Shown here in pieces: positions 1-36,512 of a stretch of DNA of 64,000 nucleotides; positions within the stretch are counted from its first letter, which is position 1, and each line of letters starts with the position of its first letter. Origin of the DNA: Myxococcota bacterium (GTDB lineage: Bacteria; Myxococcota_A; UBA796; UBA2385); assembly GCA_044344255.1 (NCBI GenBank), contig JBIJDH010000019.1, positions 1-64,000 on the forward strand, given 5' to 3'. The notes beneath the pieces were generated by a model. The model worked only from the letters and a program-made list of their open reading frames with translations. It had not been told where the DNA came from and ran no database searches. Made by a program: the position numbers and the translations under genes.

Positions 1-1106
1 GTTTTATGCTGCGGGTCTACGAGGTTCCTCCCTTCTCGAGCACCAGGGGTGTCGGGTCGTCCTTTCGTTCGACCTTCCTGGCCTTCGCTCCTCCTTCAGA
101 GACATCGGTTCGTTCGGCTCACTCCTCGCGGAGCTCACCCAAGAACCACTCTCGAATCCTACGGTCCGTCCCTGCCCTGTCGTGTGTCTTCCTCCCCCGT
201 CGGTGAGGGTGACGCTCAACAGCGCTCTTTCGGACTGCCTCTCTTGGGGTTTTCCAAAGATCCCCTCCATCGACTCCCTGATCTGCGTCCCTCCGGGCTC
301 GTGACTCCTCGCGAAGTCCGACCGCCTGGGTGAATGGGATACCAGCCCATCCACGCGATCCGCTCTTGCCGTTTCTCACGGCTTCAGCGGCTTCATCCGC
401 ATCTCAGTCGCAGGTTTGTTGCGCCCTGCTGCCGATCCTGGGGTTCAGCTCGTTCGGGGGGTTTACGCTTCCGCGCTCGCCTCCACCCGAGCTGTCTACC
501 CTTCGAAGCTTTCCTCCTCGCTCTCCAGCCGTACCGCGTCACCGCGGCCCTCTTGCCCTCTCGCCGTTCGTGTCCATCCCGCCTCTCAGCATCGATGTCC
601 ACGCGACCTCAGGGCCTTGCTCCGGAGAGGAGTCGAGACCACCCGGTGGATGTTGCCATCCCCCGCGAGTCCCTTGCTCCCTTGGGTTTCTCTCTTCGCG
701 CTGGCTCTCTCCCCCGCGCTCCTCTCAGATCGCCGCTCGCGCGGCGCCCTCCGCGGTCCTGGGCATCGCTGCCCGCTCCCGCCCCGACCGGATCGACCTT
801 CACCCTGTGGGGGTGGGGCCGATGAGGGGGTCCTGATCGTCCTGCTGGGTTCTTCAGTCGGCTCGATTCACTCCGACGACTCGGGGTGGTTCGCTCCGCC
901 TGCCGGCTCCGTGTCCTCCCCCGCTTCGAAGCTCAACTGGTTGCGCCAGAGCTGTGCTTCGGGTTGGAGAGAGGGCCGTCACCGGTCCTGCTCGAAGATT
1001 CGGTTCACGTCAAAGTTCTTGTCTGTCGGCCTCGCGGCTCTCAGACCCGCAGAGCATTTCCTCTCTGCGGTGCCTCTCGGTGTGCCACCGGTCATCCCGG
1101 CGCCGC
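1..1106 (-). ncRNA. Putative large structured ncRNA, copy 1 (3' end beyond the window start)
   Basis: Downstream of the sigma-54 promoter at 1117-1133. Many GNRA-capped stems on the minus strand. No credible ORF is conserved between copies. Start site is inferred from -12 spacing. Confidence 0.7.
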
Positions 1107-1116
1107 AGACACTCTA

Positions 1117-1133
1117 TGCAGGAAGCGTGCCAA
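1117..1133 (-). promoter_or_regulatory. Sigma-54 (RpoN) -24/-12 promoter
   Basis: Minus strand TTGGCACGCTTCCTGCA matches TGGCACG-N4-TTGC with correct GG/GC spacing. Identical in copy 2. Confidence 0.8.
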
Positions 1134-1173
1134 GCCCATGCCCACGCGCCGACGCCGAGGATGGCCAAGGGGA

Positions 1174-1211
1174 CCGGGGATCGGGGTTACCCCTTCCCAC
1201 AATGTGGGAAG
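1174..1211. promoter_or_regulatory. Palindromic upstream site, candidate enhancer-binding-protein UAS
   Basis: CTTCCCACA-A-TGTGGGAAG (1193-1211) plus adjacent GGGGTTACCCC. Conserved in copy 2 while the intervening spacer has diverged. Confidence 0.65.
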
Positions 1212-1215
1212 CGGA

Positions 1216-2193
1216 CTACTCAATCCGGCCGCCTGCTCGGTGCACCAGCACCGCGTCCTCGAGGGCGAGGCCGATCCGGAGCGCGCGCTGGCGGGCCTCC
1301 GCGCGCTCGCGCTCGTCCGGAGAGACGCGGGCCACCATCAACAGGCCCATGGCGCGGAGCCGGACGTGGCCCCCATCGCCGGCGGTCCGCACCGCCTCTT
1401 GAGCGAAGTGGAGCGCCTCCGAGGCCAGGCCTCGCCGGTGAAGCGAGTAAGCGAGGCCGTTGGCCCGGCGAGAGGCGGCGAAAGGGTGGGTGTCGGCGCG
1501 GGCGGGGAGGCCCCGGAAGAGGCGCTCCGCTCCGTCCAGATCTCCGGCGCGGAAGGCGGTCCAAGCGAGCTGACCGACATAGCGGGCGCGGAGGCAGTCG
1601 GCGTCGTCTCCCTCCAGCTGGGCGAGACAGTCCGGCACCCGGGCGAGGGAGGGAGGGGCCACGCCCGGCGCCGCCTGGCTCTCGAGGAGGGCGAGGCCGA
1701 GCGCCCCCTCGACGCGGGCGCGCAGGTCAGGGCTGTCGGCGCTGCGGGCGCGCTCCAGCGAGCGACGGGCGGACTCCGGGTCGCGGCGGCGCAGGGCGAG
1801 GTGGGCGCCGGCCAGGGCCAGCCAGACCCGCCCCGCCCGGCTCTCTCGCTGCGGGGGCCGGTCCCAGAGGGCGACGAGGTCGGCGGCGAGCGGGACCGGC
1901 AGGTCTTCGAAGCGGGAGTGGTAGCTGCCCATGAAGCGCAGCCGCTCGGTGATCTCCGCGGGGAGCCCAAAGGTCCGCAGCAGGCGCTCTCCCCAGACGC
2001 CGCCGGGGCTCGGGCCGCGGCCGCGGAGGCGGCGGAGGCCCCGCTCGGCGCTGGTGACGTCCTGGTCGACCCCACCCTCCACGAGGCGCTGGGCCAGGGT
2101 CGCGAGGCTGCCGTGCTCGGCCACCAGGGCGTCGAGCAGGGTGCCCCAGTCCGGCTGTCCGGAATTCTGTCCGTGCGGGTCCGCGGGGCTCAT
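1216..2193 (-). CDS. Hypothetical helical-repeat (TPR-like) protein with possible N-terminal HTH-like segment
   Basis: Open frame with GC-rich codon usage, ATG at 2193, Ala/Leu/Arg-rich TPR-like helices. No family recognised. Confidence 0.6.
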   Translation of the reverse strand: MSPADPHGQNSGQPDWGTLLDALVAEHGSLATLAQRLVEGGVDQDVTSAERGLRRLRGRGPSPGGVWGERLLRTFGLPAEITERLRFMGSYHSRFEDLPVPLAADLVALWDRPPQRESRAGRVWLALAGAHLALRRRDPESARRSLERARSADSPDLRARVEGALGLALLESQAAPGVAPPSLARVPDCLAQLEGDDADCLRARYVGQLAWTAFRAGDLDGAERLFRGLPARADTHPFAASRRANGLAYSLHRRGLASEALHFAQEAVRTAGDGGHVRLRAMGLLMVARVSPDERERAEARQRALRIGLALEDAVLVHRAGGRIE

Positions 2194-2276
2194 CGATAGG
2201 TCCACCGTGCGCAGGGAGCCTCCACCGTAGCTTGGGGGCCCCAACCGCGTCAGCACCCCACCCGACGGAGCCCCCC

Positions 2277-3302
2277 ATGACCGCCCACGCCCCCCGCACC
2301 ATCCTCATCGGTGACATCCACGGCTGCTACGCCGAGCTCGAGGCCCTCCTCACCGCCGTCGAGCTCCAGCCCGAGGACCACCTCGTGAGCGTCGGCGACC
2401 TTGTCGACCGCGGCCCCGAGCCCACCGCCGTGGTCCGCCTGTTCCAGACCCGCCCGAACAGCACCGCGCTCATGGGAAACCACGAGCGCAAGCATGTCCG
2501 CGGGGTCCTGTCCTACAGCCAGCAGATCACCCGCCTGCAGATGGGGGAGGCCTACGCCGACGCCGTCGCCTGGATGGCCACGCTGCCCTACCACTACGAA
2601 GATGAGCAGGTGCGCGTGGTCCACTGGGGCCTCTACCCGGGGGTCCCGCTCGCGGAGGTGCCCGAGGAGGTGCGCTCCGGGACGACCTCGGGCGAGGGCC
2701 GCCTGCGCGAGCGTTACGGCGACCGCCCCTGGCACGAGGCCTACACCGACGACAAGCCCGTCGTCTTCGGCCACGCCGTCATGGGCGCGCAGCCACTGGT
2801 GCGGGACGGGAAGGTCTACGGCCTCGACACCGGCGCCTGCCATGGCCTCCGCCTCACCGCGCTGGTGCTGCCCGAGGGGCGGATCGTCTCGGTCCCCGCG
2901 CGGGAGGACCACTGGGCGCGCGCGCGGCGGGCCTGGGAGGAGCCCGTGCTCCGCCAGCAGCGCTGGGGTGCGATGACCTGGGAGCAGCTCCAGAAGCGGA
3001 TCGCCAAGGCCCGGGACCCGGAGCACAGCGGCGACTACCTCGACCGCGTCGCGCGTTGGGCGACGGCGCTGCGCGGACAGATCCCAGAGCTCGCCGCCCA
3101 GCTCGACGCCGAGAACGCCCGGCTGATCGAGGCCGTGGGCGAGGAGGGTTACGGGCGGGCCGCCGCAGAGCACGCGGCGGGGAGCCACCTCATCCGCCTG
3201 CGGGCTGGACGGATCGGTCGAGAGAACCTCGGCTGTGCCGGACCGGCCGAGCTCGTGGCCCTGGCCGCGAAGCTCGGGAGCGCCCTGCCGACCGAGCCCT
3301 GA
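2277..3302 (+). CDS. Calcineurin-like metallophosphoesterase (ApaH/PrpE-like) with C-terminal extension
   Basis: Motifs GDIHG, GDLVDRG, GNHE, VFGH and LDTGACHG. Confidence 0.9.
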   Translation: MTAHAPRTILIGDIHGCYAELEALLTAVELQPEDHLVSVGDLVDRGPEPTAVVRLFQTRPNSTALMGNHERKHVRGVLSYSQQITRLQMGEAYADAVAWMATLPYHYEDEQVRVVHWGLYPGVPLAEVPEEVRSGTTSGEGRLRERYGDRPWHEAYTDDKPVVFGHAVMGAQPLVRDGKVYGLDTGACHGLRLTALVLPEGRIVSVPAREDHWARARRAWEEPVLRQQRWGAMTWEQLQKRIAKARDPEHSGDYLDRVARWATALRGQIPELAAQLDAENARLIEAVGEEGYGRAAAEHAAGSHLIRLRAGRIGRENLGCAGPAELVALAAKLGSALPTEP

Positions 3303-3321
3303 GCTGCCGACCGAGCCCTGA
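3285..3321. repeat. 18-bp direct duplication spanning the phosphoesterase stop codon
   Basis: CTGCCGACCGAGCCCTGA at 3285-3302 and 3304-3321. Confidence 0.85.
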
Positions 3322-3329
3322 CCCAACAG

Positions 3330-3358
3330 AAAAAACCCTCCAACTTACGTTGGAGGGT
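3330..3358 (-). terminator. Intrinsic terminator ending ncRNA copy 2
   Basis: Minus strand ACCCTCCAAC-GTAA-GTTGGAGGGT, a perfect 10-bp stem, followed by TTTTT. Confidence 0.9.
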
Positions 3359-4703
3359 CTCTTGGCGTCGGGTGGCGGTGGGTTCCCCTGCAGAGGTGTG
3401 CGCGGGGACTCGGGGAGACGGCGGGCGCGGCTCAGGTTGCCCTGCGCGTTGTCGCTTGTCTTGCCTCTCGTGGGGTCAGCGGGGTCTTCAAGGTCCTGGG
3501 TTCACTCAGCCTGCGTTGCGGCGCAGCCTGGGTCTTCCCACTCGTTCCGGGTCGCTGGTCGTTGGTCTTTCCAGCCGTCCTCCTTGACCTTGCAGGGTTT
3601 TACGCTGCGGGTCTACGAGGTTCCTCCCTTCTCGAGCACCAGGGGTGTCGGGTCGTCCTTTCGTTCGACCTTCCTGGCCTTCGCTCCTCCTTCAGAGACA
3701 TCGGTTCGTTCGGCTTACTCCTCGCGGAGCTCACCCAAGAACCACTCTCGAATCCTACGGTCCGTCCCTGCCCTGTCGTGTGTCTACCTCCCCCGTCGGT
3801 GAGGGTGACGCTCAACAGCGCTCTTTCGGACTGCCTCTCTTGGGGTTTTCCAAAGATCCCCTCCATCGACTCCCTGATCTGCGTCCCTCCGGGCTCGTGA
3901 CTCCTTCCGAAGTCCGACCGCCTGGGTGAATGGGATACCAGCCCATCCACGCGATCCGCTCTTGCCGTTTCTCACGGCTTCAGCGGCTTCATCCGCATCT
4001 CAGTCGCAGGTTTGTTGCGCCCTGCTGCCGATCCTGGGGTTCAGCTCGTTCGGGGGGTTTACGCTTCCGCGCTCGCCTCCACCCGAGCTGTCTACCCTTC
4101 GAAGCGTTCCTCCTCGCTCTCCAGCCGTACCGCGTCACCGCGGCCCTCTTGCCCTCTCGCCGTTCGTGTCCATCCCGCCTCTCAGCATCGATGACCACGC
4201 GACCTCAGGGCCTTGCTCCAGAGAGGAGTCGCGACCACCCGGTGGATGTTGCCATCCCCCGCGAGTCCCTTGCTCCCTTGGGTTTCGACCTTCTTGCTGG
4301 CTCTCTCCCCTGCGCTCCTCTCAGATCGCCGCTCGCGCGGCGCCCTCCGCGGTCCTGGGCATCGCTGCCCGCTCCCGCCCCGACCGGATCGACCTTCACC
4401 CTGGGGGGGTGGGGCCGATGAGGGGGTCCTGATCGTCCTGCTGGGGTTCTTCAGGTGGTTCGTGTCACTCCGACGACTCGGGGTGGTTCGCTCCGCCTGC
4501 CGGCTCCGTGTCCTCCCCCGCTTCGAAGCTCAACTGGTTGCGCCAGAGCTGTGCTTCGGGTTGGAGAGAGGGCCGTCGCTGGTCCTGCTCGAAGATTCGG
4601 TTCACGTCAAAGTACATGTCTGTCGGCCTCGCGGCTCTCAGACCCGCAGAGCATTTCCTCTCCGCGGTGCCTCTCGGTGTGCCACCGGTCATCCCGGCGC
4701 CGC
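3330..4703 (-). ncRNA. Putative large structured ncRNA (~1.37 kb), copy 2, complete
   Basis: Bounded by the sigma-54 promoter (4714-4730) and the terminator (3330-3358). GNRA hairpins at 3433-3444, 3718-3729, 3899-3914, 4130-4143, 4244-4257, 4327-4342, 4357-4370 and 4626-4635. Structure-preserving changes relative to copy 1. Confidence 0.75.
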
Positions 4704-4713
4704 AGACACTCTA

Positions 4714-4730
4714 TGCAGGAAGCGTGCCAA
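4714..4730 (-). promoter_or_regulatory. Sigma-54 (RpoN) -24/-12 promoter
   Basis: Minus strand TTGGCACGCTTCCTGCA. Confidence 0.8.
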
Positions 4731-4770
4731 GCACCCGCCCACGAACGAAGGCCGAGGTTGGGCGAGCCGG

Positions 4771-4808
4771 CCGGGGATCGGGGTTGCCCCTTCCCACAAT
4801 GTGGGAAG
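4771..4808. promoter_or_regulatory. Palindromic upstream site, candidate bEBP UAS
   Basis: CTTCCCACAATGTGGGAAG at 4790-4808, same distance from the -24 box as in copy 1. Confidence 0.65.
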
Positions 4809-4855
4809 TCGTTTGCCCAGACCGCCCGCCCGAGGTCCTCACCGGTCTTCAGACA

Positions 4856-5578
4856 TCACAGGTCCGCAGACAGGGGCCAGCTCAGCAGCTCGCCCTGGGT
4901 GGCCGAGGCGGTGCCGTCCTCCCCCTCGCCCGAGGTGTCCGTAGCGAAGACATACACGTTGCCGTGGGTGGTGGCGTCCGCCCGCACGGTCGCCTCGATC
5001 CGCAGCGCGATGGTGTCCCAGTCGGCGGGGTCGAATTCGGGGTCCGACCAGGTGCCCCCGACCTCGGCGAGCGGGATCTCCGCGTTCACCGAGCCCTCCC
5101 CGGGGGCGTAGAGGATGAGCTCCCCGTCAAAGGCCTCGTTCAGCACCCCGTCCGCCGTGGCCAGCGTGAAGGCGCCGCTCAGCCGCAGGTAGTCGGGGCA
5201 CTCGTCCACCGAGCCGGAGGTGTCCTCGGCGATCGCCGGCTCCATGCCGCCGTCGCCGCCGTCGCCGGTGTTGACCTCCTGGTCCACGTAGACGACGCTC
5301 TCGCCGAGCGTGACCCCGATTTGGACGGTGGCGGCAGCGCCGTCGGCGACCCAGGCGCCCTCCGCGGTGTAGGCGGCGGACAGGCCCGCGGACAGGTCAG
5401 CCGCGCTCGCGGCGAGCGAGGGGACGACCTCGTCAAAGGCGACCGCAGACTCGACCTGGGTGCAGAGGGCCCAAGCGTTCTCGTCACCCGTGCCCTTGGA
5501 GCCGGTGTCGTCCTCCGAGCCGCTACAGGCCGCGAGCGGGACGAGGGAGAGGACGGCGAGAAGGGAGAGAGAGCGCAT
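4856..5578 (-). CDS. Hypothetical acidic lipoprotein
   Basis: RBS CAGGAGG, ATG at 5578, signal peptide with lipobox LAAC. Confidence 0.75.
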   Translation of the reverse strand: MRSLSLLAVLSLVPLAACSGSEDDTGSKGTGDENAWALCTQVESAVAFDEVVPSLAASAADLSAGLSAAYTAEGAWVADGAAATVQIGVTLGESVVYVDQEVNTGDGGDGGMEPAIAEDTSGSVDECPDYLRLSGAFTLATADGVLNEAFDGELILYAPGEGSVNAEIPLAEVGGTWSDPEFDPADWDTIALRIEATVRADATTHGNVYVFATDTSGEGEDGTASATQGELLSWPLSADL

Positions 5579-5604
5579 GGTGTTGACCTCCTGCTCTTCC
5601 CTTA

Positions 5605-5621
5605 AGCACCTATCGTGCCAG
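5605..5621 (-). promoter_or_regulatory. Sigma-54 promoter of the lipoprotein gene
   Basis: Minus strand CTGGCACGATAGGTGCT with GG/GC at -24/-12 spacing, just upstream of the RBS. Confidence 0.65.
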
Positions 5622-5793
5622 GTCTCCCAGAACCCGGCGGGAGCACGTTCGAGGTCATCTTTTGTCGCACCAGGCCGCCCAGGGGCGCGCGGGGCGGCGC
5701 GAGACCGCGACTCTCCCGCCAGGGTCGCCGCTCCCTGGACGCCCACGCGCGCGTGGCTATCTTGCCGCGCCTGCCCACCCCGCCGGAGAGTCC

Positions 5794-6396
5794 ATGAAGC
5801 TCTATTACGCGCCCAGCGCCTGCTCCCTGTCCCCGCACATCGTGCTGCACGAGAGCGGACTCCCCTTTGAGATCGAGCGCTCCAACCTTCGCAAGAAGGT
5901 CACGGCCTCTGGCGGAAACTTCCTCGACATCAACCCGAAGGGCATGGTGCCGGCCCTCGTGCTCGACAACGGCGAGATCCTCACCGAGGGGCCCGCCATC
6001 GTGCAGTACATCGCGGATCTCGTCCCCGAGCGCGGCCTCGCGCCCCCCAACGGCACCCTCGCCCGCGCCCGCCTCCACGAGTGGCTGAACTACATCTCCA
6101 CCGAGCTGCACAAGGGCTACAGCCCGCTGTTCGGACCCGTCAATGACGAGCACCTCGCCGCCGCCCGCAAGGCCCTCGAGGTCCGCTTCGCCTACGTCAA
6201 CCAGCGCCTCGAGGGGCAGCAGTGGCTCATGGGCGACACCTTCAGCGTGGCCGACGCCTATATGTTCACCGTCCTCTCCTGGGCCAAGTGGACGAAGATC
6301 GACTACAGCCCCTATCCGAACATCCAGCCCTATCTGGAGCGCGTCGCGGCGCGGCCCGCGGTGCAGGCCGCCCTCCAGGCCGAGGGCCTCTCCTGA
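5794..6396 (+). CDS. gstA: Glutathione S-transferase, beta class
   Basis: MKLYYAPSACSLSPHIVL, NPKGMVPAL, LTEGPAIVQYIAD, TELHKGYSPLF. Confidence 0.93.
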   Translation: MKLYYAPSACSLSPHIVLHESGLPFEIERSNLRKKVTASGGNFLDINPKGMVPALVLDNGEILTEGPAIVQYIADLVPERGLAPPNGTLARARLHEWLNYISTELHKGYSPLFGPVNDEHLAAARKALEVRFAYVNQRLEGQQWLMGDTFSVADAYMFTVLSWAKWTKIDYSPYPNIQPYLERVAARPAVQAALQAEGLS

Positions 6397-6436: not shown

Positions 6437-8008
6437 TCAGGGCGTGAGCGACCAGGCCGAGGCGTCCTCTCCCCGGCGGTCGGGGGGCCCGAGCGCGGCC
6501 TCCACGCGGGCCACATAGGGCTCGCGCACGACCATGACCGCGACCCCGGGCGGCGCCTCGAAGGGGGAGGGCGGCGGCGCCGGCACCTCCGCCGCGAGGC
6601 CCGCCAGCCAGCGGCCGGAAGGGCTCCGCATCATCGCGGGCGGGAGCCCCGGCTGGTTGGGGGACAGGACCAGCGGCCGACCGTGGACCGGCTGATCGAA
6701 GAGCGGGCGCTGAAAGTTGATGCCCGGGCCGGCCGCGGGCAGGACGAGCAAGGGGCCCGCCGGGAGCGACCCCAGCGCGGAGAGCACGTCCAGCGGCGCC
6801 GCCTCGGCGACCGGCAGCGGGACCGGCAGCGGCCGCCCGAGCAGCAGGTCCAGGCCGATCAGCCCGATGAACAGGGCCTTCCCACGGCTGGGGAGGCGAG
6901 CGAAGCCTCGCGCGGCGAGCACCGAGAGGGCGACCCCGGCGAGAAGCAGCGCCCGCCCGTGGTGGTTGAGCAGGCCGGCGCCCGGGAGGGCGGAGAGCAG
7001 CACCACCGCGGGGTTGTCGAGGCCGAGCGGCGCCCCGCCGAAGGAGAGGCGGCGCCCCGGAGCGAGGAGCAGGGCGAGCAGGAGGGGCAGCCACCAGCGG
7101 CTCCGCCCGCCGACGAAGGCGAGGGCCAGCGCCGCCAGCCCGAGGTAGCCCGGGTGGGTGTGGAGCAGGGCGGGCCCGGGGTCGAGCGGCCCGGGGACGA
7201 AATAGCTGAGCAGATCGGCCCCCCGCCAGGGGTTCAATCGCCACAGGGGCTCCACCTGCTCGACGACGGAGCCCAGCCGGTGCCCCTCACCGCCGAGCCG
7301 GACCCCCTGGAGGGCGGCCACTGGGAGGGCTGAGGCGAGGGCCGCCGCCGCGGCGATCGCCAGGGGCCAGAGCCGGCGGCGCTCCTCGAAGACGCTGTGG
7401 AGGCCCATCAGGAGGCCGACCAGCGCCGTCCAGTACGCGAGCACGAGCCCGGTGGCCGCCAGCAAACCGAGGCCGAGGCCGCCCAGCACCACAGCGCCGG
7501 GCCGCCGGTCGCGCAGCAGCCCGAGCGCCACGGCGGCGAGGCCGACGGCGCCGTCCTCGGTCAACCCCGATGAGAGCGAGCCTGAAAAGGCAGGGAAGGA
7601 GCCCAACAGCAGGCCGCCCACCAGCGGCGAGCCCCCCTCGCGCCGGGCGAGCCAGGCGCCCCCCAGGAAGGCCCCGAAGACCGAAACCAGGATCCAGGCG
7701 TTGTACCCGACGATCCCTCCGAAGATCCGACCGAGGACCGCCGCGAACAGGGTGGGCAGGGGGTCAATGACCGCCCAGGGCCCCGCCTCGGTGAGCAGCC
7801 CCTCCGTCGTCGTGGGCCAGGCGGGGAGCGCGGCGGCGTGCCAGCCCTGCACCCAGGCGTGGCCATAGACCTCGGCGCCGGGGCTCCCGAGGAGGCCCGG
7901 CGACACCAGGAGGCCGCTGGCGGTGACGAGCACGAGCAGCGCCCCGCCGGCCACCGCGCGCCACGCCGACCCTCGGGAGGTGGGCTCAGTCCGGTCGGCC
8001 TCGGTCAC
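6437..8008 (-). CDS. Polytopic membrane protein, possible GT-C-like glycosyl/modification transferase
   Basis: Many hydrophobic segments. GGAGG RBS before GTG at 8008. Shares motifs (FDQPVHGRPL, GYLG) with 32184-33884. Confidence 0.65.
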   Translation of the reverse strand: MTEADRTEPTSRGSAWRAVAGGALLVLVTASGLLVSPGLLGSPGAEVYGHAWVQGWHAAALPAWPTTTEGLLTEAGPWAVIDPLPTLFAAVLGRIFGGIVGYNAWILVSVFGAFLGGAWLARREGGSPLVGGLLLGSFPAFSGSLSSGLTEDGAVGLAAVALGLLRDRRPGAVVLGGLGLGLLAATGLVLAYWTALVGLLMGLHSVFEERRRLWPLAIAAAAALASALPVAALQGVRLGGEGHRLGSVVEQVEPLWRLNPWRGADLLSYFVPGPLDPGPALLHTHPGYLGLAALALAFVGGRSRWWLPLLLALLLAPGRRLSFGGAPLGLDNPAVVLLSALPGAGLLNHHGRALLLAGVALSVLAARGFARLPSRGKALFIGLIGLDLLLGRPLPVPLPVAEAAPLDVLSALGSLPAGPLLVLPAAGPGINFQRPLFDQPVHGRPLVLSPNQPGLPPAMMRSPSGRWLAGLAAEVPAPPPSPFEAPPGVAVMVVREPYVARVEAALGPPDRRGEDASAWSLTP

Positions 8009-8119
8009 GGGGGCGCTCCTCCCTCCCGTCCCGACGAACATCGCCGAGAGGCCGAGCGATAACCCGGCTGCCCATCGCCGCCGCCCTCTGATACGATGCC
8101 CGACCTGTCCGGAGATCCG

Positions 8120-10399
8120 ATGCGCGCGCTCATCCTGCTCCCCCTCTCCCTCATGGCCCTCGCCTGCAAGACCGACTCGGGGGACAAGTCCAACCCGAGC
8201 TCGACCTCCACCGACGGGAGCGGAGAGTCCGACGCCGACACCGACACCGACGCCGACACCGACGCCGACACCGACGCCGACACCGACGCCGACACCGACG
8301 CCGACCCCTGCGTGGAGGAGGTCGGCGGCGCGCTGCCCGACGGCGTGGAGTGGGTGAGCTACGACGGCGTCTCTCACGAGACCTTCAGCTTCGCCGACGG
8401 CGTCTTCCCCACGAATTGGGAGGGGTACTACGGGACCTACAACCTCAACACCGAGGAGGTCTATGCCGGCAACAACGTCAAGCTGACCCGCCCGGGCTCC
8501 GTGGTCGCCGTCCAGGTGCGCTGGGCGAACCTCAAGAGTGACCCCTCCGCCGCCACGATCTCGCTCTACCCGGACTTCAGCAGCAACGCCTACTCCTTCG
8601 ACTGGCAGAACCCCATCGTGTCGGCCACCCGCTGCCTGACCAGCGCCGACGAGGGCGCCTGGACCGAGGTGGTCTTCCCGAGCCCGGTCCACCTCGACCA
8701 GCCGGGCTACGTCTATGCGGCCTATCACCGCGAAGAGGGGGCCGACGCGCCCGAGGTCCTCATGGAGAACCTCTACAGCGAGGCGGAGCCCTACTGGTCG
8801 GGCGTCCGCTGGCCGAACATCGACACGCGGGTGTACTACGGCGGCCTCCAGAGCCCCTTTTACACCTGGCAGATCCGCCTCGGCGTCGTCTACGACGAGT
8901 CTGAGGCCATCCCGGCCGAGGACAAGCCCTTTCAGCTCGACGCCTCCCTGTCCGTGTCGAGCCGAGTGGCCTGGGGGGACTACGACAATGACGGCGACGA
9001 CGACGTCATGACCTCTGGCCCCAGCCTCTATCGGAACAACGGCGACGGCACCTTCACCGACGTCACCGCCTCCTCCTTCAGCGCCGGGGTCGGCACAGGC
9101 GGCGGCGTCTGGGGAGACTACGACAACGACGGCTGCCTCGACTACTTCGGCCAGGGCGGCGGAGCCACGGCGGGGGAGCTCCTGCTCCACAACGACTGTG
9201 ACGGCACCTTCACCGACCTCACCCTCGAGAGCGGCATCAACGACTTCCAGTCCGAGATCGACTGCGACGAGGACGGCCTGGGCGAATATTCCCCCACTGA
9301 GGGCGCCGCCTGGTTCGACCTCGACAACGACGGGCTGCTCGACCTCTACCTCGCCAACTACGAGTGCTCGTCGGGGTCCGGAGCCTACACCCTGTTCTAC
9401 GACGACAAGGTCTGGAAGAACAACGGGGACGGCACCTTCACCGACTGGACGCTGGCCTCGGGTATCCCCCAGTCCAACAAGGCCGGCCGCGGCGTCAACA
9501 CCGCCGACTTCGACCAGGACGGAGACACCGACGTCTTCGTGAGCAACTACCGCCTGACCGAGAACTTCCTGCTCGAGAACAACGGCGACGGCACGATGAC
9601 CGACATCGGGCGGTCCAGCGGCACCCGCGGGATCAACGACAGCGGGGCCTACGGCCACACCATCGGCTCGACCTGGGGTGACATCGACAACGACGGCGAC
9701 TTTGACCTCGTGTCGGCGAACCTCGCCCACCCCTTCTACTACTCCTTCAGCGACCGCACGATGGTGCTGATCAACGACGGGGACGGGGTCTTCACCGACG
9801 AGGCGGAGAGCCGCGGCATCGTCTATCGAGAGACCGACTCGAACCCCACCCTCTTCGACGGCGACAACGACGGCGACCTCGACCTCTTCATCACCGCCGT
9901 CTATCCCTCTCGCGACAGCTCCTATTACGAGAACGACGGGACGGGCGTCTTCACGCTCCGGAATTACGAGAGCGGCCTCGTCGTCCAGAACGGCTGGGGG
10001 GCCGCCGCGGCCGACCCCGATCAGGACGGCGACCAGGACATGCTCGCCTATGGCCTGTACCGGAACCACCAGGCCAACGGGAATCATTGGCTGGAGGTGC
10101 GCGCGGTGGGCGGCGCCGGCTCGGGCGGCCTGTCGAACCGCAGCGCCATTGGGGCGATCGTCGAGGTCACCGCCGCCGGGGCCGCCCAGCTTCGACAGGT
10201 TCAGGGCGGGACGGGGACGAGCAACCAGGACAGCTTCGCGCAGCACTTCGGCCTCGGCGCCGAGGCGTTGGTGGACAGCCTGACCGTCTCCTTCCCCGGC
10301 GGGGCCACGGTCGAGCTCACCGACGTGGCGGCCGACCAGCTCATCTGGGTCTTCGAGGACGGCAGCTCAGCCACCGGCTGGGCGCCACCGGCCCTGTGA
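8120..10399 (+). CDS. CRTAC1/ASPIC-UnbV family FG-GAP repeat lipoprotein
   Basis: Lipobox LAC, repeated WGDYDNDG and NNGDGTFTD motifs, C-terminal NRSAIGAIVEV...QHFGLG. Confidence 0.88.
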   Translation: MRALILLPLSLMALACKTDSGDKSNPSSTSTDGSGESDADTDTDADTDADTDADTDADTDADPCVEEVGGALPDGVEWVSYDGVSHETFSFADGVFPTNWEGYYGTYNLNTEEVYAGNNVKLTRPGSVVAVQVRWANLKSDPSAATISLYPDFSSNAYSFDWQNPIVSATRCLTSADEGAWTEVVFPSPVHLDQPGYVYAAYHREEGADAPEVLMENLYSEAEPYWSGVRWPNIDTRVYYGGLQSPFYTWQIRLGVVYDESEAIPAEDKPFQLDASLSVSSRVAWGDYDNDGDDDVMTSGPSLYRNNGDGTFTDVTASSFSAGVGTGGGVWGDYDNDGCLDYFGQGGGATAGELLLHNDCDGTFTDLTLESGINDFQSEIDCDEDGLGEYSPTEGAAWFDLDNDGLLDLYLANYECSSGSGAYTLFYDDKVWKNNGDGTFTDWTLASGIPQSNKAGRGVNTADFDQDGDTDVFVSNYRLTENFLLENNGDGTMTDIGRSSGTRGINDSGAYGHTIGSTWGDIDNDGDFDLVSANLAHPFYYSFSDRTMVLINDGDGVFTDEAESRGIVYRETDSNPTLFDGDNDGDLDLFITAVYPSRDSSYYENDGTGVFTLRNYESGLVVQNGWGAAAADPDQDGDQDMLAYGLYRNHQANGNHWLEVRAVGGAGSGGLSNRSAIGAIVEVTAAGAAQLRQVQGGTGTSNQDSFAQHFGLGAEALVDSLTVSFPGGATVELTDVAADQLIWVFEDGSSATGWAPPAL
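8231..8305 (+). repeat. In-frame (GACGCCGACACC)n repeat encoding an Asp-Ala/Asp-Thr linker
   Basis: Encodes DADTDTDADTDADTDADTDADTDAD. Confidence 0.9.
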
Positions 10400-12048
10400 C
10401 CGCGAGGGACCCTGCCCAGCTTGGCTTCGACCGCCTGCTGCAGGCCGAGCTCGACAAGGCGGAGGGTAAGAAAGCCGCGGCGATGGCCTTGCTCATCGTC
10501 CTCGGCATCGTCCCGGTCGTCGCGGCGTTGTTCGTTCAAAGTCAGTTCCTCGACCACACCGCCCATCGCCCGGGCATTATCAGCGCCTTTGTCAGCGTCT
10601 GCCTGGTCTTGCTGGCGATCGAGATCCTGGCCTGGCTGCTCATCCGGCGGCGGACCCGCGCTGGCATCCCGCTGCGACGCTGGCCGGGGGTGATGATGAT
10701 CGGGCTGGAGGCGCTGCTGCCGACCATCGGTCTCGCCCTGATCGGGAGCTTCCTCCCACCGACCTACGCGTTGACCGCCCCGCAGCTCCTGCTCTATGGG
10801 GTGACCGTCACCTCGAGCACCCTCCGGCTCGAGCCCCGCCTGTGCCTGCTCTCGGGGGGGATCAGCGCCCTGTCCTATGCGGCGCTCGCCGCCTGGCTGG
10901 TCTCCGGCGGAGGGGTGACGCTTGAGCTCGAGCGAGCGCCGGCCACCCATGTCATGCGCACCACCTACATCCTGCTGCTCGGCGGGGTGGCGGCGGCGAT
11001 CGCCTGGCAGGTGCGCGCCCGCGTGGACGCCGCCTTGCAGAACGCCCTTGATCGCAACCGGGTGGTGAGCGTCTTCGGTCGGTACCTCACGAGTGACGTC
11101 GTCGACCACCTCCTCCACGCCCCCGACGGCCTGCGCCTCGGTGGCCAGCGTCGTGAGATCACGGTCCTGATGACCGACCTCCGGGGCTTCTCGACCCTCG
11201 CCGAACGAATGCCCCCCGAGCAGGTGATGACGCTGCTCAACCACTACCTCGGGCGGATGATCCCCGTGGTGATGGCCCACGGCGGCACCCTCGACGAGAT
11301 CATCGGCGACGCCCTGCTCGTGCTCTTCAACGCCCCGCTGCACCAGGCCGATCACGCCCGGCGGGCGGTCGCCTGTGCGCTGTCGATGCAGCGGGAGATG
11401 GCGGTGGTGAACGACTGGAATGACGCACAAGGGCTGCCGCGCTTGGAGATGGGCGTCGGGCTCCACAGCGGGGAGGCGGTGGTCGGCAACATCGGCTCCG
11501 ATCAGCGACAGAAGTACGGCGTGGTGGGGAGCACGATCAACACCGCGGCCCGCGTCGAGTCGGCCACCGTCGGCGGTCAGGTGCTGGCCACCGCGCGGGT
11601 CGTCGAGCTCGCGGGCGAGGGGCTCTGGACGGGTGAGCGTCGGGCGCTCCGCCCCAAGGGCTCGGTGAGCGCCCTCGAGGTGACCGCGCTGCTCGGCCTG
11701 GGCGAGCTCCGCCTCGAGGCGACGGACGACGCCCTCTCCCCCTGCGCCACGATGCCGGTCCTGCTCCAGCTCCTCCATGGCAAGGAGCTCGATCCTCAGC
11801 CGATCGCGGCGACCCTGGTCGCCCGCTCCACCCGCGCGCTGCGCGTGCGCGCCGAGCGCTCCCTCGAGGGGGCGGAGGACCTCCGGGTGACGATCGGCGG
11901 AGCCTCCGCCTATGCCCGCGTGACCGTGGAGGCCGGCGGGGCGCTGCTCCGGATCACCTCCGCCGAGGGAGCCGCGGCCCTGTGGAGCGCGGTGGCGGCG
12001 CTACCGGCGACCCCTCAGGGCTCGGGCTCGAGGCCTACCGAGGGATAG
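10396..12048 (+). CDS. Membrane-anchored class III nucleotidyl cyclase, Cya2-like guanylyl signature
   Basis: GTG overlaps the upstream TGA. About 6 TM helices. TDLRGFS, DEIIGDA, GNIGS..KYGVVGSTINTAARVES. Confidence 0.9.
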   Translation: MTARDPAQLGFDRLLQAELDKAEGKKAAAMALLIVLGIVPVVAALFVQSQFLDHTAHRPGIISAFVSVCLVLLAIEILAWLLIRRRTRAGIPLRRWPGVMMIGLEALLPTIGLALIGSFLPPTYALTAPQLLLYGVTVTSSTLRLEPRLCLLSGGISALSYAALAAWLVSGGGVTLELERAPATHVMRTTYILLLGGVAAAIAWQVRARVDAALQNALDRNRVVSVFGRYLTSDVVDHLLHAPDGLRLGGQRREITVLMTDLRGFSTLAERMPPEQVMTLLNHYLGRMIPVVMAHGGTLDEIIGDALLVLFNAPLHQADHARRAVACALSMQREMAVVNDWNDAQGLPRLEMGVGLHSGEAVVGNIGSDQRQKYGVVGSTINTAARVESATVGGQVLATARVVELAGEGLWTGERRALRPKGSVSALEVTALLGLGELRLEATDDALSPCATMPVLLQLLHGKELDPQPIAATLVARSTRALRVRAERSLEGAEDLRVTIGGASAYARVTVEAGGALLRITSAEGAAALWSAVAALPATPQGSGSRPTEG

Positions 12049-12644
12049 GGCTCTCCGCCCGCCCACAGCGCCGCCCGCAGCCCCGCGGCCCGCGCGCCCT
12101 CGACGTCGGCGACCGGCTCATCACCGAGGTGGGTGATGGCCTCGGGGGGCAGGTCGAGCGCGTCTGCGAGCGAGAGAAAGAAGGCTCGGTCGGGCTTCTC
12201 GGCCTCCACCTCCGCGGAGATGTGGACGTGGTCGAAACGAGAGAGGAGATCGAGGGAGCCGAGCAGCGGGCGCAAGCGGCTGTCCCAATTCGAGGCGAGG
12301 GCGGTCCGCCAGCCTTGACGCCGCGCCGCGTCGAGCAGGCGCAGCGCGGGCACGGAGACCATCCAGGCCTCGGGCAACGTATAGTGCGCGTACAAGGCCT
12401 CGAAGACAACAGGGTCTCCCGTACCGATCGCCTCGGCGACCACCGCGCGCCAGAAAGAGCGGCCGTCCCCTACGTACCGGCGCCCCTCCCAGGGCTGCCC
12501 AGCGACGCGCAGGAGGCCGGCCCGGACCGCCTCGACCGAGCGCGGGTGTCCATGGGCTGCCGCGACGCGGGCATAGGTGAGGGCGACGGGCTCCCGGACG
12601 TGCAGCAGCGTGCCGCCGGCGTCGAGGCTGAGGGCGCGGATCAC
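12015..12644 (-). CDS. HAD-IA family hydrolase
   Basis: LDAGGTLL, SNWDSRL, EKPD and HLGD motifs. Confidence 0.88.
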   Translation of the reverse strand: MIRALSLDAGGTLLHVREPVALTYARVAAAHGHPRSVEAVRAGLLRVAGQPWEGRRYVGDGRSFWRAVVAEAIGTGDPVVFEALYAHYTLPEAWMVSVPALRLLDAARRQGWRTALASNWDSRLRPLLGSLDLLSRFDHVHISAEVEAEKPDRAFFLSLADALDLPPEAITHLGDEPVADVEGARAAGLRAALWAGGEPYPSVGLEPEP

Positions 12645-12724
12645 GGAGGTCTCCTCCAGCAGTTCGGCGGTGTAAGTACCCCTCCGCGCCGCCGTTGTCG
12701 GCTGCCGCCGAATCCGGAGCCCCG

Positions 12725-16072
<3,348 letters not shown>

Positions 16073-36436: not shown

Positions 36437-36512
36437 TGGAGCGGGAGACGGGACTCGAACCCGCGACATCCAGCATGGCAAGCTGGTGCTCTACCAACTG
36501 AGCTACTCCCGC
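36437..36512 (-). tRNA. tRNA-Gly (GCC)
   Basis: GCGGGAGTAGCTCAGTTGGTAGAGCACCAGCTTGCCATGCTGGATGTCGCGGGTTCGAGTCCCGTCTCCCGCTCCA: cloverleaf, anticodon GCC, encoded CCA. Confidence 0.97.

What the first reader, a model, noticed from the sequence alone, without database searches (positions are those of the whole stretch)
3330..4808. Candidate novel ~1.37-kb sigma-54-driven structured ncRNA present in at least two copies
Seen: a complete minus-strand unit with a palindromic site (4790-4808), a -24/-12 promoter (4714-4730), ~1370 nt without a credible ORF, and a perfect terminator (3330-3358). Seen: at least 8 short GNRA-capped stems that read as GNRA on the minus strand, e.g. CGCCGC-GCGA-GCGGCG, GGGCA-GCGA-UGCCC, GGAUG-GCAA-CAUCC, CCGCG-GUGA-CGCGG, CAGG-GCAA-CCUG. 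A near-identical second copy lies at 1-1211. Knowledge: dense GNRA loops typify large tertiary-folded RNAs (rRNA, RNase P, introns, GOLLD/ROOL/OLE), and sigma-54-dependent, sometimes multi-copy RNAs are known (Pseudomonas CrcZ/CrcY, Myxococcus Pxr) but are much shorter. Inference: a large ncRNA I cannot assign to any class I recognise.
Basis: partly seen in the sequence, partly recalled or inferred. Interest (0 to 1): 0.95.

Follow-up and report, generated by a model that had tools for sequence, protein, structure and literature searches.

The report
New giant sigma-54-driven structured RNA
A 1.4-kilobase RNA gene with its own sigma-54 promoter and terminator encodes no protein, folds into an elaborate conserved shape, is abundant in environmental RNA samples, occurs across Myxococcota, and matches no RNA family in Rfam.

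Summary

- **The gene.** Window 4703→3330 (minus strand) is a free-standing gene for a ~1.37 kb noncoding RNA. It has a perfect palindrome at 4791-4807, a sigma-54 −24/−12 promoter at 4714-4729, and a strong terminator hairpin at 3330-3363.
- **Copies.** The genome has three. Copy A is the one above. Copy B (window 1-1211) is 97% identical, and its 3′ part lies at the end of another contig. Copy C is 73% identical and lies on a third contig.
- **Known families.** Rfam 15 gives no match.
- **Distribution.** A covariance model of a 129-nt core finds the family in 74 of 151 genomes of the order, in other orders of the class, and in other classes of the phylum (Myxococcota by record titles). There are 1-7 matches per genome.
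- **Architecture.** Ten sequence blocks are colinear. The total length is 1.07-2.47 kb.
- **Structure.** A 182-pair consensus is strongly supported by covariation. It includes a helix joining the 5′ end to the 3′ end.
- **Coding and neighbours.** No conserved ORF and no conserved neighbour gene was found.
- **Expression.** Metatranscriptome contigs from four studies cover the RNA. In three of the four they do not cover its flanking genes.
- **Function.** The function is unknown. I favour a folded scaffold (ribonucleoprotein or RNA-only assembly) made on an enhancer-binding-protein signal. A CsrA or Hfq sponge is disfavoured.

The parts
4791..4807 (-). Perfect 8-1-8 palindrome TTCCCACATTGTGGGAA, 62-78 bp upstream of the -24 element; presumed enhancer-binding-protein site
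   Evidence: Read. The core motif is found in the genome only at copies A and B. It is partly kept in copy C (GCCCACTCTCTGGGAA). Its role as an enhancer-binding-protein site is inferred.
4768..4790 (-). Upstream stretch GGGGCAACCCCGATCCCC, conserved between copies A and C although the surrounding flank diverges
   Evidence: Pairwise alignment. Function not tested.
4714..4729 (-). Sigma-54 -24/-12 promoter TGGCACGCTTCCTGCA
   Evidence: 3 matches in the window against 0.11 expected. The same motif lies upstream of 29 of 46 distinct homologous cores. The genome has rpoN and 45 matches to the sigma-54 activator domain.
3330..4703 (-). The ~1.37 kb noncoding RNA (copy A), from the inferred start to the end of the terminator U tract
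   Evidence: The start is inferred from the -12 spacing and the first base of the closing helix. RNA-library contigs of 4 studies cover 3375 to about 4756. No Rfam match. No conserved ORF.
4694..4701 (-). 5' strand of the helix that closes the molecule (GGCGCCGG)
   Evidence: Helix 1: 8 pairs, 5 with changes on both sides, 91.7% of cells paired.
3364..3371 (-). 3' strand of the closing helix (CCGACGCC), just before the terminator hairpin
4604..4612 (-). CUUUGACGU, invariant in 16 of 16 aligned homologues; a U-rich island in a U-poor RNA
   Evidence: Invariant columns of alignment A3. Partner unknown.
4300..4600 (-). Lineage-variable expansion region holding several GNRA-capped stems; short or absent in 1.2-kb homologues
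4085..4300 (-). Conserved 5' domain (blocks B430 and B565), with conserved GCAA (4252) and GUGA (4138) tetraloops and AAG/GAA and GAG/GAG 3x3 internal loops
   Evidence: Helices 4-12; loop tallies; block mapping.
3925..4055 (-). Most conserved core (model R1, 129 positions, 30 pairs)
   Evidence: Found in 74 of 151 genomes of the order, 85 of 151 of the class sample and 25 of 151 of the phylum sample.
3820..3898 (-). Conserved block GAUGGAGGGGAUCUUUGGAAAACCCCAAGAGAGGCAGUCCG. It pairs at long range with 3383-3398.
   Evidence: Helices 23-25; block B835.
3459..3703 (-). Conserved 3' domain (helices 26-34), closed by GUCUCU...AGAGGC
3937..3940 (-). Loop UGGU, candidate kissing partner of loop ACCA at 3563-3566
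   Evidence: 94.6% of cells paired; the variable pair reads CG 10, UA 2, AU 1, UG 1; one homologue has UUGC with GCAA. Support is modest.
3563..3566 (-). Loop ACCA, candidate kissing partner of 3937-3940
3330..3363 (-). Intrinsic terminator: 15-pair stem capped by GUAA, then U6
   Evidence: -32.9 kcal/mol, z = -7.7. RNA contigs end at 3375-3441, and no run covers 2300-3352 apart from two faint bins in X4.
1..1211 (-). Copy B (97% identical), with its own promoter (1117-1132) and palindrome (1194-1210). It is cut by the contig start.
   Evidence: The duplicated unit runs exactly from the palindrome to the terminator.

Best explanation
This is a free-standing gene for a large, trans-acting, highly structured noncoding RNA that belongs to no family in Rfam 15.

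Shown:
- It has its own sigma-54 promoter and an intrinsic terminator.
- The region between them is present in RNA libraries at depths far above those of its flanking genes.
- It does not code for a conserved protein.
- It folds into a closed, multi-domain body. The first bases pair with the bases just before the terminator hairpin. At least 36 helices (182 pairs) are kept through compensatory changes.
- Two GNRA loops and several 3x3 purine internal loops are conserved.
- The family is spread through Myxococcota at 1-7 matches per genome.

Inferred:
- An enhancer-binding protein bound at the upstream palindrome switches transcription on in response to a signal.
- The folded RNA body itself is the product. 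It most likely acts as a scaffold, either bound by one or more proteins or self-assembled through tetraloop-receptor and loop-loop contacts, as OLE, ROOL and GOLLD RNAs do. It is less likely to soak up a global RNA-binding protein.

I put about 0.95 on 'real, expressed, structured ncRNA family with no match in Rfam 15'. I put about 0.6 on the scaffold or assembly mode of action; the confidence figure given for this explanation is that lower one.
For: Promoter:
- The motif stands at 4714-4729.
- The same TGGCAY-N5-NTGCW motif lies on the same strand within 2.3 kb upstream of 29 of 46 distinct homologous cores. Only 37 matches exist in all 807,360 nt scanned on both strands.
- The genome has rpoN and 45 sigma-54 activator-domain matches.

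Terminator.

Expression:
- 20 of the 24 runs listed, from 12 studies, hold part of the stretch; 18 of the 20 are on record as RNA.
- In the four runs laid, contigs cover 3375 to about 4756 at depths of 10-1170.
- X4, X5 and X15 do not cover the flanks, apart from two bins at depth about 3 in X4.

Structure:
- 87.6% of cells are paired, against 74.2% in shuffles (0 of 500 as high) and 37-42% when partners are slid.
- 115 of 182 pairs change on both sides, against 71 in shuffles and 49-61 when slid.
- The covariation score is 0.402 against about 0.09.
- The closing helix covaries, for example GGCACCGGG/CCCGGUGCC and GACAUCCGG/CGGAUGUC.
- There are 10 GNRA hairpins on the RNA strand and 0 on the other strand.
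- 8 of 24 internal loops are symmetric 3x3 purine loops. GAA/AAG and GAG/GAG swap 6:6 at one site.
- There is a candidate kissing loop.

Noncoding:
- Conservation shows no 3-base periodicity, and open frames differ in frame and place among 22 homologues.
- ORFs over the RNA have atypical codon-position GC.

Free-standing:
- No Pfam family recurs next to it in 20 loci from 19 genomes. The exceptions are an E1 dehydrogenase/DAO pair in two loci of one genus and DUF7226 in two loci.
- The gene downstream in the window is convergent.

Family.

Not a known RNA:
- Rfam gives no match.
- Canonical RNase P and 6S RNAs lie elsewhere in the genome.
Against: - No partner protein, ligand, target or phenotype is known, so the mode of action is inference only.
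- Contigs do not give the strand or the exact ends. One X1 contig (3841-5540) runs on into the upstream gene, so some transcripts may start at that gene's own sigma-54 promoter (5605-5620).
- The core was not found in about half of the genomes of the order, including 12 of 21 other genomes of the same family. The RNA is therefore dispensable, or was missed in fragmented assemblies.
- The palindrome is not conserved outside this genome.
- The distant members inspected (other orders and classes) show no sigma-54 motif. One that I read through looks like a ~700-nt version, so sigma-54 control may hold only for this order.
- The consensus structure was derived from the same 16 sequences on which the pairs were counted, which favours it over the slid controls.
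- The literature check covers open-access papers and bioRxiv only.
Confidence: 0.6

Rival explanations
1. It is a protein sponge or decoy. On a sigma-54 signal the cell makes a large RNA whose repeated purine motifs titrate a global RNA-binding regulator, as CrcZ/CrcY do for Hfq/Crc and CsrB/RsmZ do for CsrA.
For: - It has a sigma-54 promoter, several copies per genome and high abundance.
- The RNA is purine-rich: G 36%, A 24.5%, U 10.8%.
- A CsrA homologue exists in this genome.
- The precedents (CrcZ, GlmY, Qrr) are recalled, not tested.
Against: - GGA occurs 59 times against 53.8 ± 4.9 in shuffles, and AAGGA 4 times against 3.6, so there is no motif enrichment beyond composition.
- CsrA was found in 0 of 46 genomes of family f4, where the RNA core is in 29 of 46. 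It was found in only 1 of 21 other genomes of family f1, where the core is in 9 of 21.
- Hfq was not found in this 95%-complete genome.
- A sponge does not need 182 covarying pairs, a 5'-3' closing helix and ten colinear conserved blocks.
Confidence: 0.12
2. It is a large ribozyme. The conserved junction and loop nucleotides form an active site that cuts, joins or modifies some substrate.
For: - Its size and complexity are in the range of RNase P, group I and II introns and rRNA domains.
- It has invariant unpaired stretches such as CUUUGACGU (16 of 16).
- It has long-range helices and a candidate loop-loop contact.
- GAGAGGAAGUCCG resembles the RNase P CR-I sequence. That resemblance is recalled from memory, not tested.
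Against: - No Rfam ribozyme model matches, even at E <= 10.
- A canonical RNase P RNA lies elsewhere in the genome.
- There are no flanking exons, target-site features or substrate clues.
- Its patchy presence argues against an essential catalytic role.
Confidence: 0.12
3. It is an mRNA or dual-function RNA for one or more small proteins.
For: Copy A has GGAGAGGAAAUG followed by a 15-codon frame ending in the conserved CUUUGA. Copy C keeps the frame through a 12-nt deletion.
Against: - Other homologues lack a start codon there, for example the G021 sequence printed.
- Conservation shows no 3-base periodicity in any of 10 conserved blocks.
- The longest open frames differ in frame and position among 22 homologues, and reach only 84-111 codons in the lower-GC ones.
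Confidence: 0.03
4. It is a mobile or selfish element (an intron-like or retroelement-derived RNA) that spreads within genomes.
For: - Genomes carry several copies.
- Neighbourhoods vary.
- Contigs often break at it.
- Paralogues within a genome are often near-identical.
Against: - There is no transposase, reverse transcriptase or integrase next to it in 20 loci.
- There are no terminal repeats.
- The duplicated unit is exactly palindrome, promoter, RNA and terminator.
- Copies are often tandem or close together (A and B 3.6 kb apart; G099 adjacent), which fits local duplication.
- No Rfam group II intron match.
- The two hits of the pattern scan of IMG/VR were chance 20-30 nt matches.
Confidence: 0.03
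5. It is a cis-acting leader or an antisense RNA of a neighbouring gene.
For: One X1 contig joins it to the upstream lipoprotein-like gene.
Against: - It ends in its own terminator, and the next gene in the window is convergent.
- Neighbours differ in every family examined.
- The opposite strand shows no coding signal.
Confidence: 0.02

Closest known systems
OLE RNA (Rfam RF01071), ~610 nt, Firmicutes extremophiles
   Same: It is a large, intricately folded and highly abundant bacterial ncRNA that acts as a folded body. It was also discovered by comparative analysis with unknown biochemistry.
   Different: There is no sequence or structure match. This RNA is two to four times longer and occurs in Myxococcota. 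It has a sigma-54 promoter. It has no conserved adjacent partner gene, whereas OLE sits with oapA (the oapA context is recalled; the absence of conserved neighbours is).
GOLLD (RF01998) and ROOL (RF03087) RNAs
   Same: They are large ornate RNAs rich in tertiary-contact motifs. Cryo-EM shows RNA-only homo-oligomers (abstract of PMC12286853, seen in the listing). The GNRA loops, recurrent purine internal loops and loop-loop candidate here would suit such assembly.
   Different: There is no Rfam match. I found no phage or tRNA association: the IMG/VR pattern scan gave only chance matches. It is a chromosomal gene with sigma-54 control. Oligomerisation is untested.
CrcZ/CrcY/CrcX of Pseudomonas (sigma-54/CbrB-dependent sponges, ~400 nt; recalled)
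   Same: They share a sigma-54 promoter with an upstream activator site, several paralogous copies, a free-standing gene ending in a terminator, and high abundance.
   Different: This RNA is 3-6 times longer. It has a deeply conserved fold instead of repeated A-rich single-stranded motifs. Hfq was not found in this genome. There is no Rfam match.
Pxr sRNA of Myxococcus (recalled)
   Same: It is an ncRNA in the same phylum, reported with NtrC-type/sigma-54 control.
   Different: Pxr is about 100 nt and restricted to one suborder. There is no match in the Rfam scan.
CsrB/RsmZ family
   Same: Both are purine-rich, abundant and multi-copy.
   Different: GGA motifs are not enriched. The RNA occurs in many genomes where no CsrA was found.
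Bacterial RNase P RNA (RF00010)
   Same: Both have a helix joining the 5' and 3' ends, a multi-domain fold and GNRA loops. GAGAGGAAGUCCG resembles the CR-I stretch of RNase P (a recalled resemblance).
   Different: The RNase P model matches only the genome's canonical RNase P RNA on contig C74 (243 bits). There is no Rfam hit here even at E <= 10.

Membership tests
Any Rfam 15 family (4227 models) | Covariance-model score at or above the gathering threshold | tested here: not met
   the whole window gives only a tRNA at 36440-36512; over 1-5000 at E <= 10 there are only ASdes (17.5 bits against 40) and ctRNA_p42d (16.8 against 50), both outside the body of the RNA or at its terminator.
OLE RNA | RF01071 match | tested here: not met
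OLE RNA | Conserved adjacent partner gene (oapA; recalled) | tested here: not met
   no family recurs next to the RNA in 20 loci from 19 genomes.
GOLLD / ROOL | RF01998 or RF03087 match | tested here: not met
GOLLD / ROOL | Frequent location in phages or prophages, near tRNAs (recalled) | tested here: not met
   the IMG/VR pattern scan gave 2 loci, both 20-30 nt chance matches; no phage genes in the flanks. This was one exact pattern, not a full search.
GOLLD / ROOL / OLE | Homo-oligomeric RNA assembly | not testable with these tools
   Needs native gels, SEC-MALS or cryo-EM.
CrcZ-type sponge | Sigma-54 promoter with an upstream activator site | tested here: met
CrcZ-type sponge | The sequestered protein (Hfq) is present | tested here: not met
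   no Hfq match in a 95.24%-complete genome.
CsrB/RsmZ-type sponge | Many GGA motifs beyond what composition gives | tested here: not met
   GGA 59 against 53.8 ± 4.9; AAGGA 4 against 3.6 ± 1.8; AGGA 21 against 14.9 ± 3.6.
CsrB/RsmZ-type sponge | Co-occurrence with CsrA | tested here: not met
   in family f4 the RNA is in 29 of 46 genomes and CsrA in 0 of 46. In family f1 (without G000) the RNA is in 9 of 21 and CsrA in 1 of 21.
RNase P RNA | RF00010 match | tested here: not met
   the only match in the genome is C74:260924-261421.
Group II intron | Rfam intron models; intron-encoded protein | tested here: not met
   Searches give no hit; one search finds no conserved ORF. The 5' GUGYG and domain V were not examined separately.
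Large ornate bacterial ncRNAs (a descriptive group, not a homologous family) | Over 500 nt, noncoding, many covarying helices, conserved unpaired nucleotides | tested here: met

The most novel reading that the evidence does not exclude
This is a new kilobase-scale RNA machine of Myxococcota. It is either a ribozyme or a self-assembling RNA-only particle, switched on by a sigma-54 enhancer-binding protein. It is among the more abundant transcripts that these bacteria contribute to freshwater metatranscriptomes. It has lineage-specific expansion segments on a ~1 kb conserved core.
Probability: 0.25. Interest if true: 0.93.

Novelty: categorically new. Interest (0 to 1): 0.88.

Why it matters
Bacterial noncoding RNAs longer than about 500 nt with rRNA-like structural complexity are very rare. 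The few known ones (OLE, GOLLD, ROOL) have each opened new biology, most recently RNA-only cages.

This family is longer than those three. It is supported by more than 100 covarying pairs. It is spread across a phylum known for multicellular development and predation. It is visibly abundant in environmental RNA.

It also comes with a regulatory handle, a sigma-54 promoter, which gives a direct route to finding the signal and the activator.

The 1.2-kb minimal versions, and the members in two genomes assembled into one or two contigs, offer material for cryo-EM and, if those strains are in culture, for genetics.

Tried and rejected
**Known families.** I scanned Rfam at the gathering threshold and at E <= 10 and found nothing.

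**Divergent housekeeping RNA.** The canonical RNase P and 6S RNAs lie elsewhere in the genome.

**Conserved neighbour gene.** I scanned 87 flanking ORFs from 20 loci with Pfam and the window's own neighbours. No partner emerged. One locus (G099) has an NtrC-type activator gene 1.2 kb upstream, which may be chance.

**Coding.** Rejected on the evidence.

**CsrA or Hfq sponge.** Disfavoured.

**Phage association.** One exact 19-nt pattern over IMG/VR gave only chance hits.

**Pattern scan of genome contigs.** The pattern was too loose. There were 116 stretches, of which 80 were fetched. Only 10 of the 80 were true family members by the model, plus one weak 27.9-bit match.

**Partner for the invariant CUUUGACGU.**
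- GUCAAGG in the 3' domain and CGUCGAAG in the core are complementary to it.
- Both already sit in covarying helices, and they vary while the motif does not. I therefore dropped both ideas; this was reasoning with no separate test.

**Repeated GAA-ACCCC motif.** It turned out to be the 3' strands of ordinary stems preceded by A-rich loops, not a repeated binding site (from reading).

**Terminator scan tool.** It missed the terminator, so I folded the region instead.

**Literature.** Five full-text searches found no description of such an RNA. I saw listings and abstract starts only and read no paper in full.

**Earlier findings of this scan.** Three look-ups returned nothing.

**Coverage gaps.** Parts of the laid stretch without cover (2300-3352 in all four runs apart from faint X4 bins; above 4757 in X4, X5 and X15) are contig data and cannot prove silence.
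Full report
**1. Is it there?**

- The palindrome TTCCCACATTGTGGGAA lies at 4791-4807.
- TGGCACGCTTCCTGCA lies at 4714-4729.
- A 15-pair GUAA-capped hairpin followed by U6 lies at 3330-3363.

The sigma-54 pattern TGGCAC-N6-TGCW has 3 matches in the 64-kb window against 0.11 expected, and 0 of 100 shuffles reach 3. Two of the three sit before copies A and B.

The terminator region folds at -32.9 kcal/mol with z = -7.7. The simple terminator scan missed it, probably because the stem runs into the U tract.

The RNA strand carries 10 GNRA-capped stems of 4 or more pairs, and the opposite strand carries none. Dinucleotide shuffles give 1.16 ± 1.10, and 0 of 500 reach 10.

The region is lower in G+C (61-69%) than its flanks (72-80%) and strongly purine-skewed. 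The RNA itself is G 36%, C 29%, A 24.5%, U 10.8%.

**2. Copies in the genome**

The window is contig C29 of an 8.18-Mb, 83-contig, 95%-complete assembly. BLAST of the unit against that genome gave four matches.

- Copy A: 3330-4810.
- Copy B: window 1-1211, 97% identical, cut by the contig start.
- The missing 3' 394 nt of a copy at the very end of contig C42, 98% identical.
- Copy C: contig C43, 73% identical.

The A/B duplication runs exactly from the palindrome to the end of the terminator. The unit that was copied is therefore the whole gene with its control region.

The alignment of A with C is a mosaic of identical blocks and diverged stems that keep pairing. Examples are GGGCA-GCGA-UGCCC against CGACA-GAGA-UGUCG, and the terminator CUCCAACGUAAGUUGGAG against CUCCAGCGCAAGCUGGAG.

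**3. Not a known RNA**

Rfam 15 at the gathering threshold finds only a tRNA elsewhere in the window. At E <= 10 over 1-5000 there are only two sub-threshold chance matches. The genome has a canonical RNase P RNA (243 bits, contig C74) and a 6S RNA elsewhere.

Five full-text literature searches (listings and abstract starts only) found no description of such an RNA. Subscription journals are not covered.

**4. A family across the phylum**

BLAST found colinear pieces in 10 of 21 other genomes of the same family. From 11 sequences of the best-conserved stretch (window 3925-4050) I built alignment A2, in which 11 of 30 predicted pairs show compensatory change. From A2 I built covariance model R1.

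| Sample searched with R1 | Genomes with a match | By family |
|---|---|---|
| Order | 74 of 151 | f1 9/21, f2 11/22, f3 0/10, f4 29/46, f5 2/2, f6 8/16, f7 14/33 |
| Class | 85 of 151 | other orders: f8 15/15 with up to 6 matches per genome, f10 1/2, f12 3/8 |
| Phylum, E <= 1e-4 | 25 of 151 | other classes: f28 5/10, f20 2/12, and single genomes of f38, f40, f43; none in f14 (0/11) or f18 (0/13) |

These searches used Infernal's stricter filters on samples of each group, and many genomes are fragmented MAGs. A genome without a match therefore counts as 'not found', not as 'absent'.

Record titles of true members in the named collection read 'Myxococcota bacterium' and 'Deltaproteobacteria bacterium UBA2385/UBA796/J125/M30B51/S143_5'. 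One is labelled 'uncultured Enterobacterales bacterium', but the tool places it in the same order.

**5. Architecture**

An E-INS-i alignment of 22 full-length homologues and nhmmer profiles of ten blocks show the same order of blocks in several families of the order:

promoter and 5' stem, then CUUUGACGU, then B430, B565, B680 (= R1), B835, B1030, B1100, B1235, and finally the 3' end with the terminator.

Length from promoter to 3' end ranges from 1067 to 2474 nt. The differences lie in lineage-specific insertions between blocks. In copy A the main one is window ~4300-4600. The minimal forms are about 1.2 kb.

The more distant members that I inspected keep the R1 core. One that I read through (L193) looks like a ~700-nt purine-rich RNA. 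None of those inspected shows the sigma-54 motif.

**6. Promoter**

A strict sigma-54 motif (TGGCAY-N5-NTGCW) lies on the same strand within 2.3 kb upstream of 29 of 46 distinct cores. Only 37 such motifs exist in all 807,360 nt scanned on both strands.

Of the 17 cores without the motif:
- five have under 800 nt of upstream sequence in the locus;
- one (G099) has the variant TGGCACGGGTCTCGCA;
- five (L177, L192-L195) are the distant or weak members noted above.

The genome encodes rpoN and has 45 matches to the sigma-54 activator domain.

Counting 12 nt from the C of the -12 GC puts the start at window 4703, which is the G that opens the closing helix. The palindrome core occurs nowhere else in the genome, and it is not conserved in other genera. 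If it is an activator site, the activators or their sites have diverged.

**7. Structure**

I aligned 16 full-length homologues of 1.5 kb or less with the tool (A3). I computed an RNAalifold consensus on the 992 columns with at least 60% occupancy and had the pairs counted. The consensus has 182 pairs in 36 helices.

| Measure | Observed | Shuffled | 3' partner slid by 1-3 columns |
|---|---|---|---|
| Cells paired | 87.6% | 74.2% (0 of 500 as high) | 37-42% |
| Pairs with changes on both sides | 115 | 71 | 49-61 |
| Covariation score | 0.402 | 0.173 | ~0.09 |

The structure was derived from these same sequences, which flatters it against the slid controls. The margin is nevertheless very large.

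Long-range helices join several parts of the molecule:
- the 5' end to the 3' end (helix 1: 8 pairs, 5 covarying);
- B430 to B565;
- the two sides of the R1 domain;
- B835 to the 3' region;
- the two ends of the 3' domain.

Two GNRA loops are conserved across the order: GCAA or GAAA in 14 of 16, and GUGA or GCGA in 11 of 16.

Eight of 24 internal loops are symmetric 3x3 purine loops (AAG/GAA, GAG/GAG and the like). At one site GAA/AAG and GAG/GAG alternate 6:6.

A candidate kissing contact joins loop UGGY (3940-3937) to loop RCCA (3566-3563).
- In A3, 94.6% of cells are paired, and the variable pair reads CG 10, UA 2, AU 1, UG 1. Only 3 of 500 shuffles reach the observed percentage of paired cells.
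- In a wider set of 50 rows, the variable pair reads CG 33, UA 3, UG 3, AU 2 and 9 others. These rows are 16 seeds plus 34 added, and the added rows include the seeds' loci again. One homologue has UUGC with GCAA.
- I rate this as modest support.

**8. Noncoding and free-standing**

Conservation shows no 3-base periodicity in any of the ten blocks. The longest open frames differ in frame and place among 22 homologues, and reach only 84-111 codons in the lower-GC ones. ORFs that overlap the RNA have atypical codon-position G+C.

Pfam scans of 87 flanking ORFs in 20 loci from 19 genomes found no family that recurs next to the RNA. The exceptions are an E1 dehydrogenase/DAO pair in two loci of one genus and DUF7226 in two loci. 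The window's own neighbours are a TPR protein, a metallophosphatase and an ORF with no Pfam hit.

The first attempt at the flanking-ORF scan, with 134 ORFs, exceeded the size limit. I therefore scanned the 87 nearest.

**9. Expression**

The index of public runs lists 24 runs. Twenty of them, from 12 studies, hold part of the stretch, and 18 of the 20 are on record as RNA. I laid four runs from four studies on window 2300-5800.

- Contigs at 97-99% identity cover 3375 to about 4756, at summed depths of about 10 to 1170.
- X4, X5 and X15 show nothing on the flanking genes, apart from two bins at depth about 3 in X4.
- X1 has one 1699-nt contig (3841-5540) that runs on into the upstream gene, and nothing downstream of the terminator.
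- Extra contigs from relatives pile up on the conserved core, with one joint at depth 2273 in X4.

Contigs cannot give the strand, the exact ends or a level of expression. What they do show is presence in RNA libraries far above the flanking genes, with limits that fit the predicted start and terminator.

**10. What it does**

This part is inference. The anatomy is that of a compact, tertiary-folded RNA whose body is the product. It has a closing helix, many covarying helices, conserved loops and junctions, and expansion segments on a fixed core. Sigma-54 control means it is made only when an activator ATPase is switched on by a signal.

I tested the sponge idea directly.
- GGA motifs are at the level composition predicts.
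- Hfq was not found in this genome.
- CsrA, although present here, was found in 0 of 46 genomes of family f4, where the RNA is in 29 of 46. It was found in 1 of 21 other genomes of f1, where the RNA is in 9 of 21.

I therefore favour a scaffold, either a ribonucleoprotein or an RNA-only assembly, at about 0.6. I put a sponge and a ribozyme at about 0.12 each. I give the remaining readings (mRNA, mobile element, cis-acting element) a few percent each.

**11. Verdict**

This is a real, expressed, structured RNA family with no match in Rfam 15 and none found in the open literature. It stands beside OLE, GOLLD and ROOL by size and ornateness, but it is related to none of them. It is unusual in having a sigma-54 promoter.

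Noticed in passing
window 5605-5620 (-), with ATG at 5577 and stop at 4856: A third sigma-54 motif, TGGCACGATAGGTGCT, sits 28 nt before GGAGG and the ATG of a lipoprotein-like ORF (MRSLSLLAVLSLVPLAAC...; no Pfam hit). This ORF lies directly upstream of the RNA gene on the same strand. One RNA contig of run X1 (3841-5540) joins the two.
   Followed up: partly
G000 contig ends (C29 start, C42 end); G007, G008 and G009 loci L008, L012, L014, L016, L020: Contigs of this and other MAGs often break inside the RNA gene, as expected for a multi-copy repeat. Copy numbers and 'no match' results in MAGs are therefore underestimates.
   Followed up: no
L176 (G099:C1) 6912-8589 and 8817-10717: Two tandem copies lie in a near-complete genome. 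A radical SAM gene and an NtrC-type sigma-54 activator gene sit just upstream (L176:10851-11951 and 11960-13390).
   Followed up: no
L193 7740-8450 (G177, another order of the class): A distant member looks like a ~700-nt purine-rich RNA. It keeps the R1 core but has no recognisable sigma-54 motif and no CUUUGACGU.
   Followed up: partly
G000:C36:160602-160736: A CsrA homologue is present in this genome, although CsrA was found in only 1 of 21 other genomes of its family. Hfq was not found.
   Followed up: partly
L133 (record CAZTOW010000012.1): A record titled 'uncultured Enterobacterales bacterium' carries a full-scoring family member (107.9 bits). The label looks wrong.
   Followed up: no
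window 6437-10246 (-): A 1269-aa ORF has no Pfam match at E <= 0.01.
   Followed up: no
window 3820-3860 (-): The conserved GAGAGGCAGUCCG (consensus GAGAGGAAGUCCG) resembles the RNase P CR-I sequence from memory. No RNase P model matches here, so this is probably coincidence.
   Followed up: partly
window 36440-36512 (-): A tRNA gene (Rfam RF00005, 72.7 bits).
   Followed up: no
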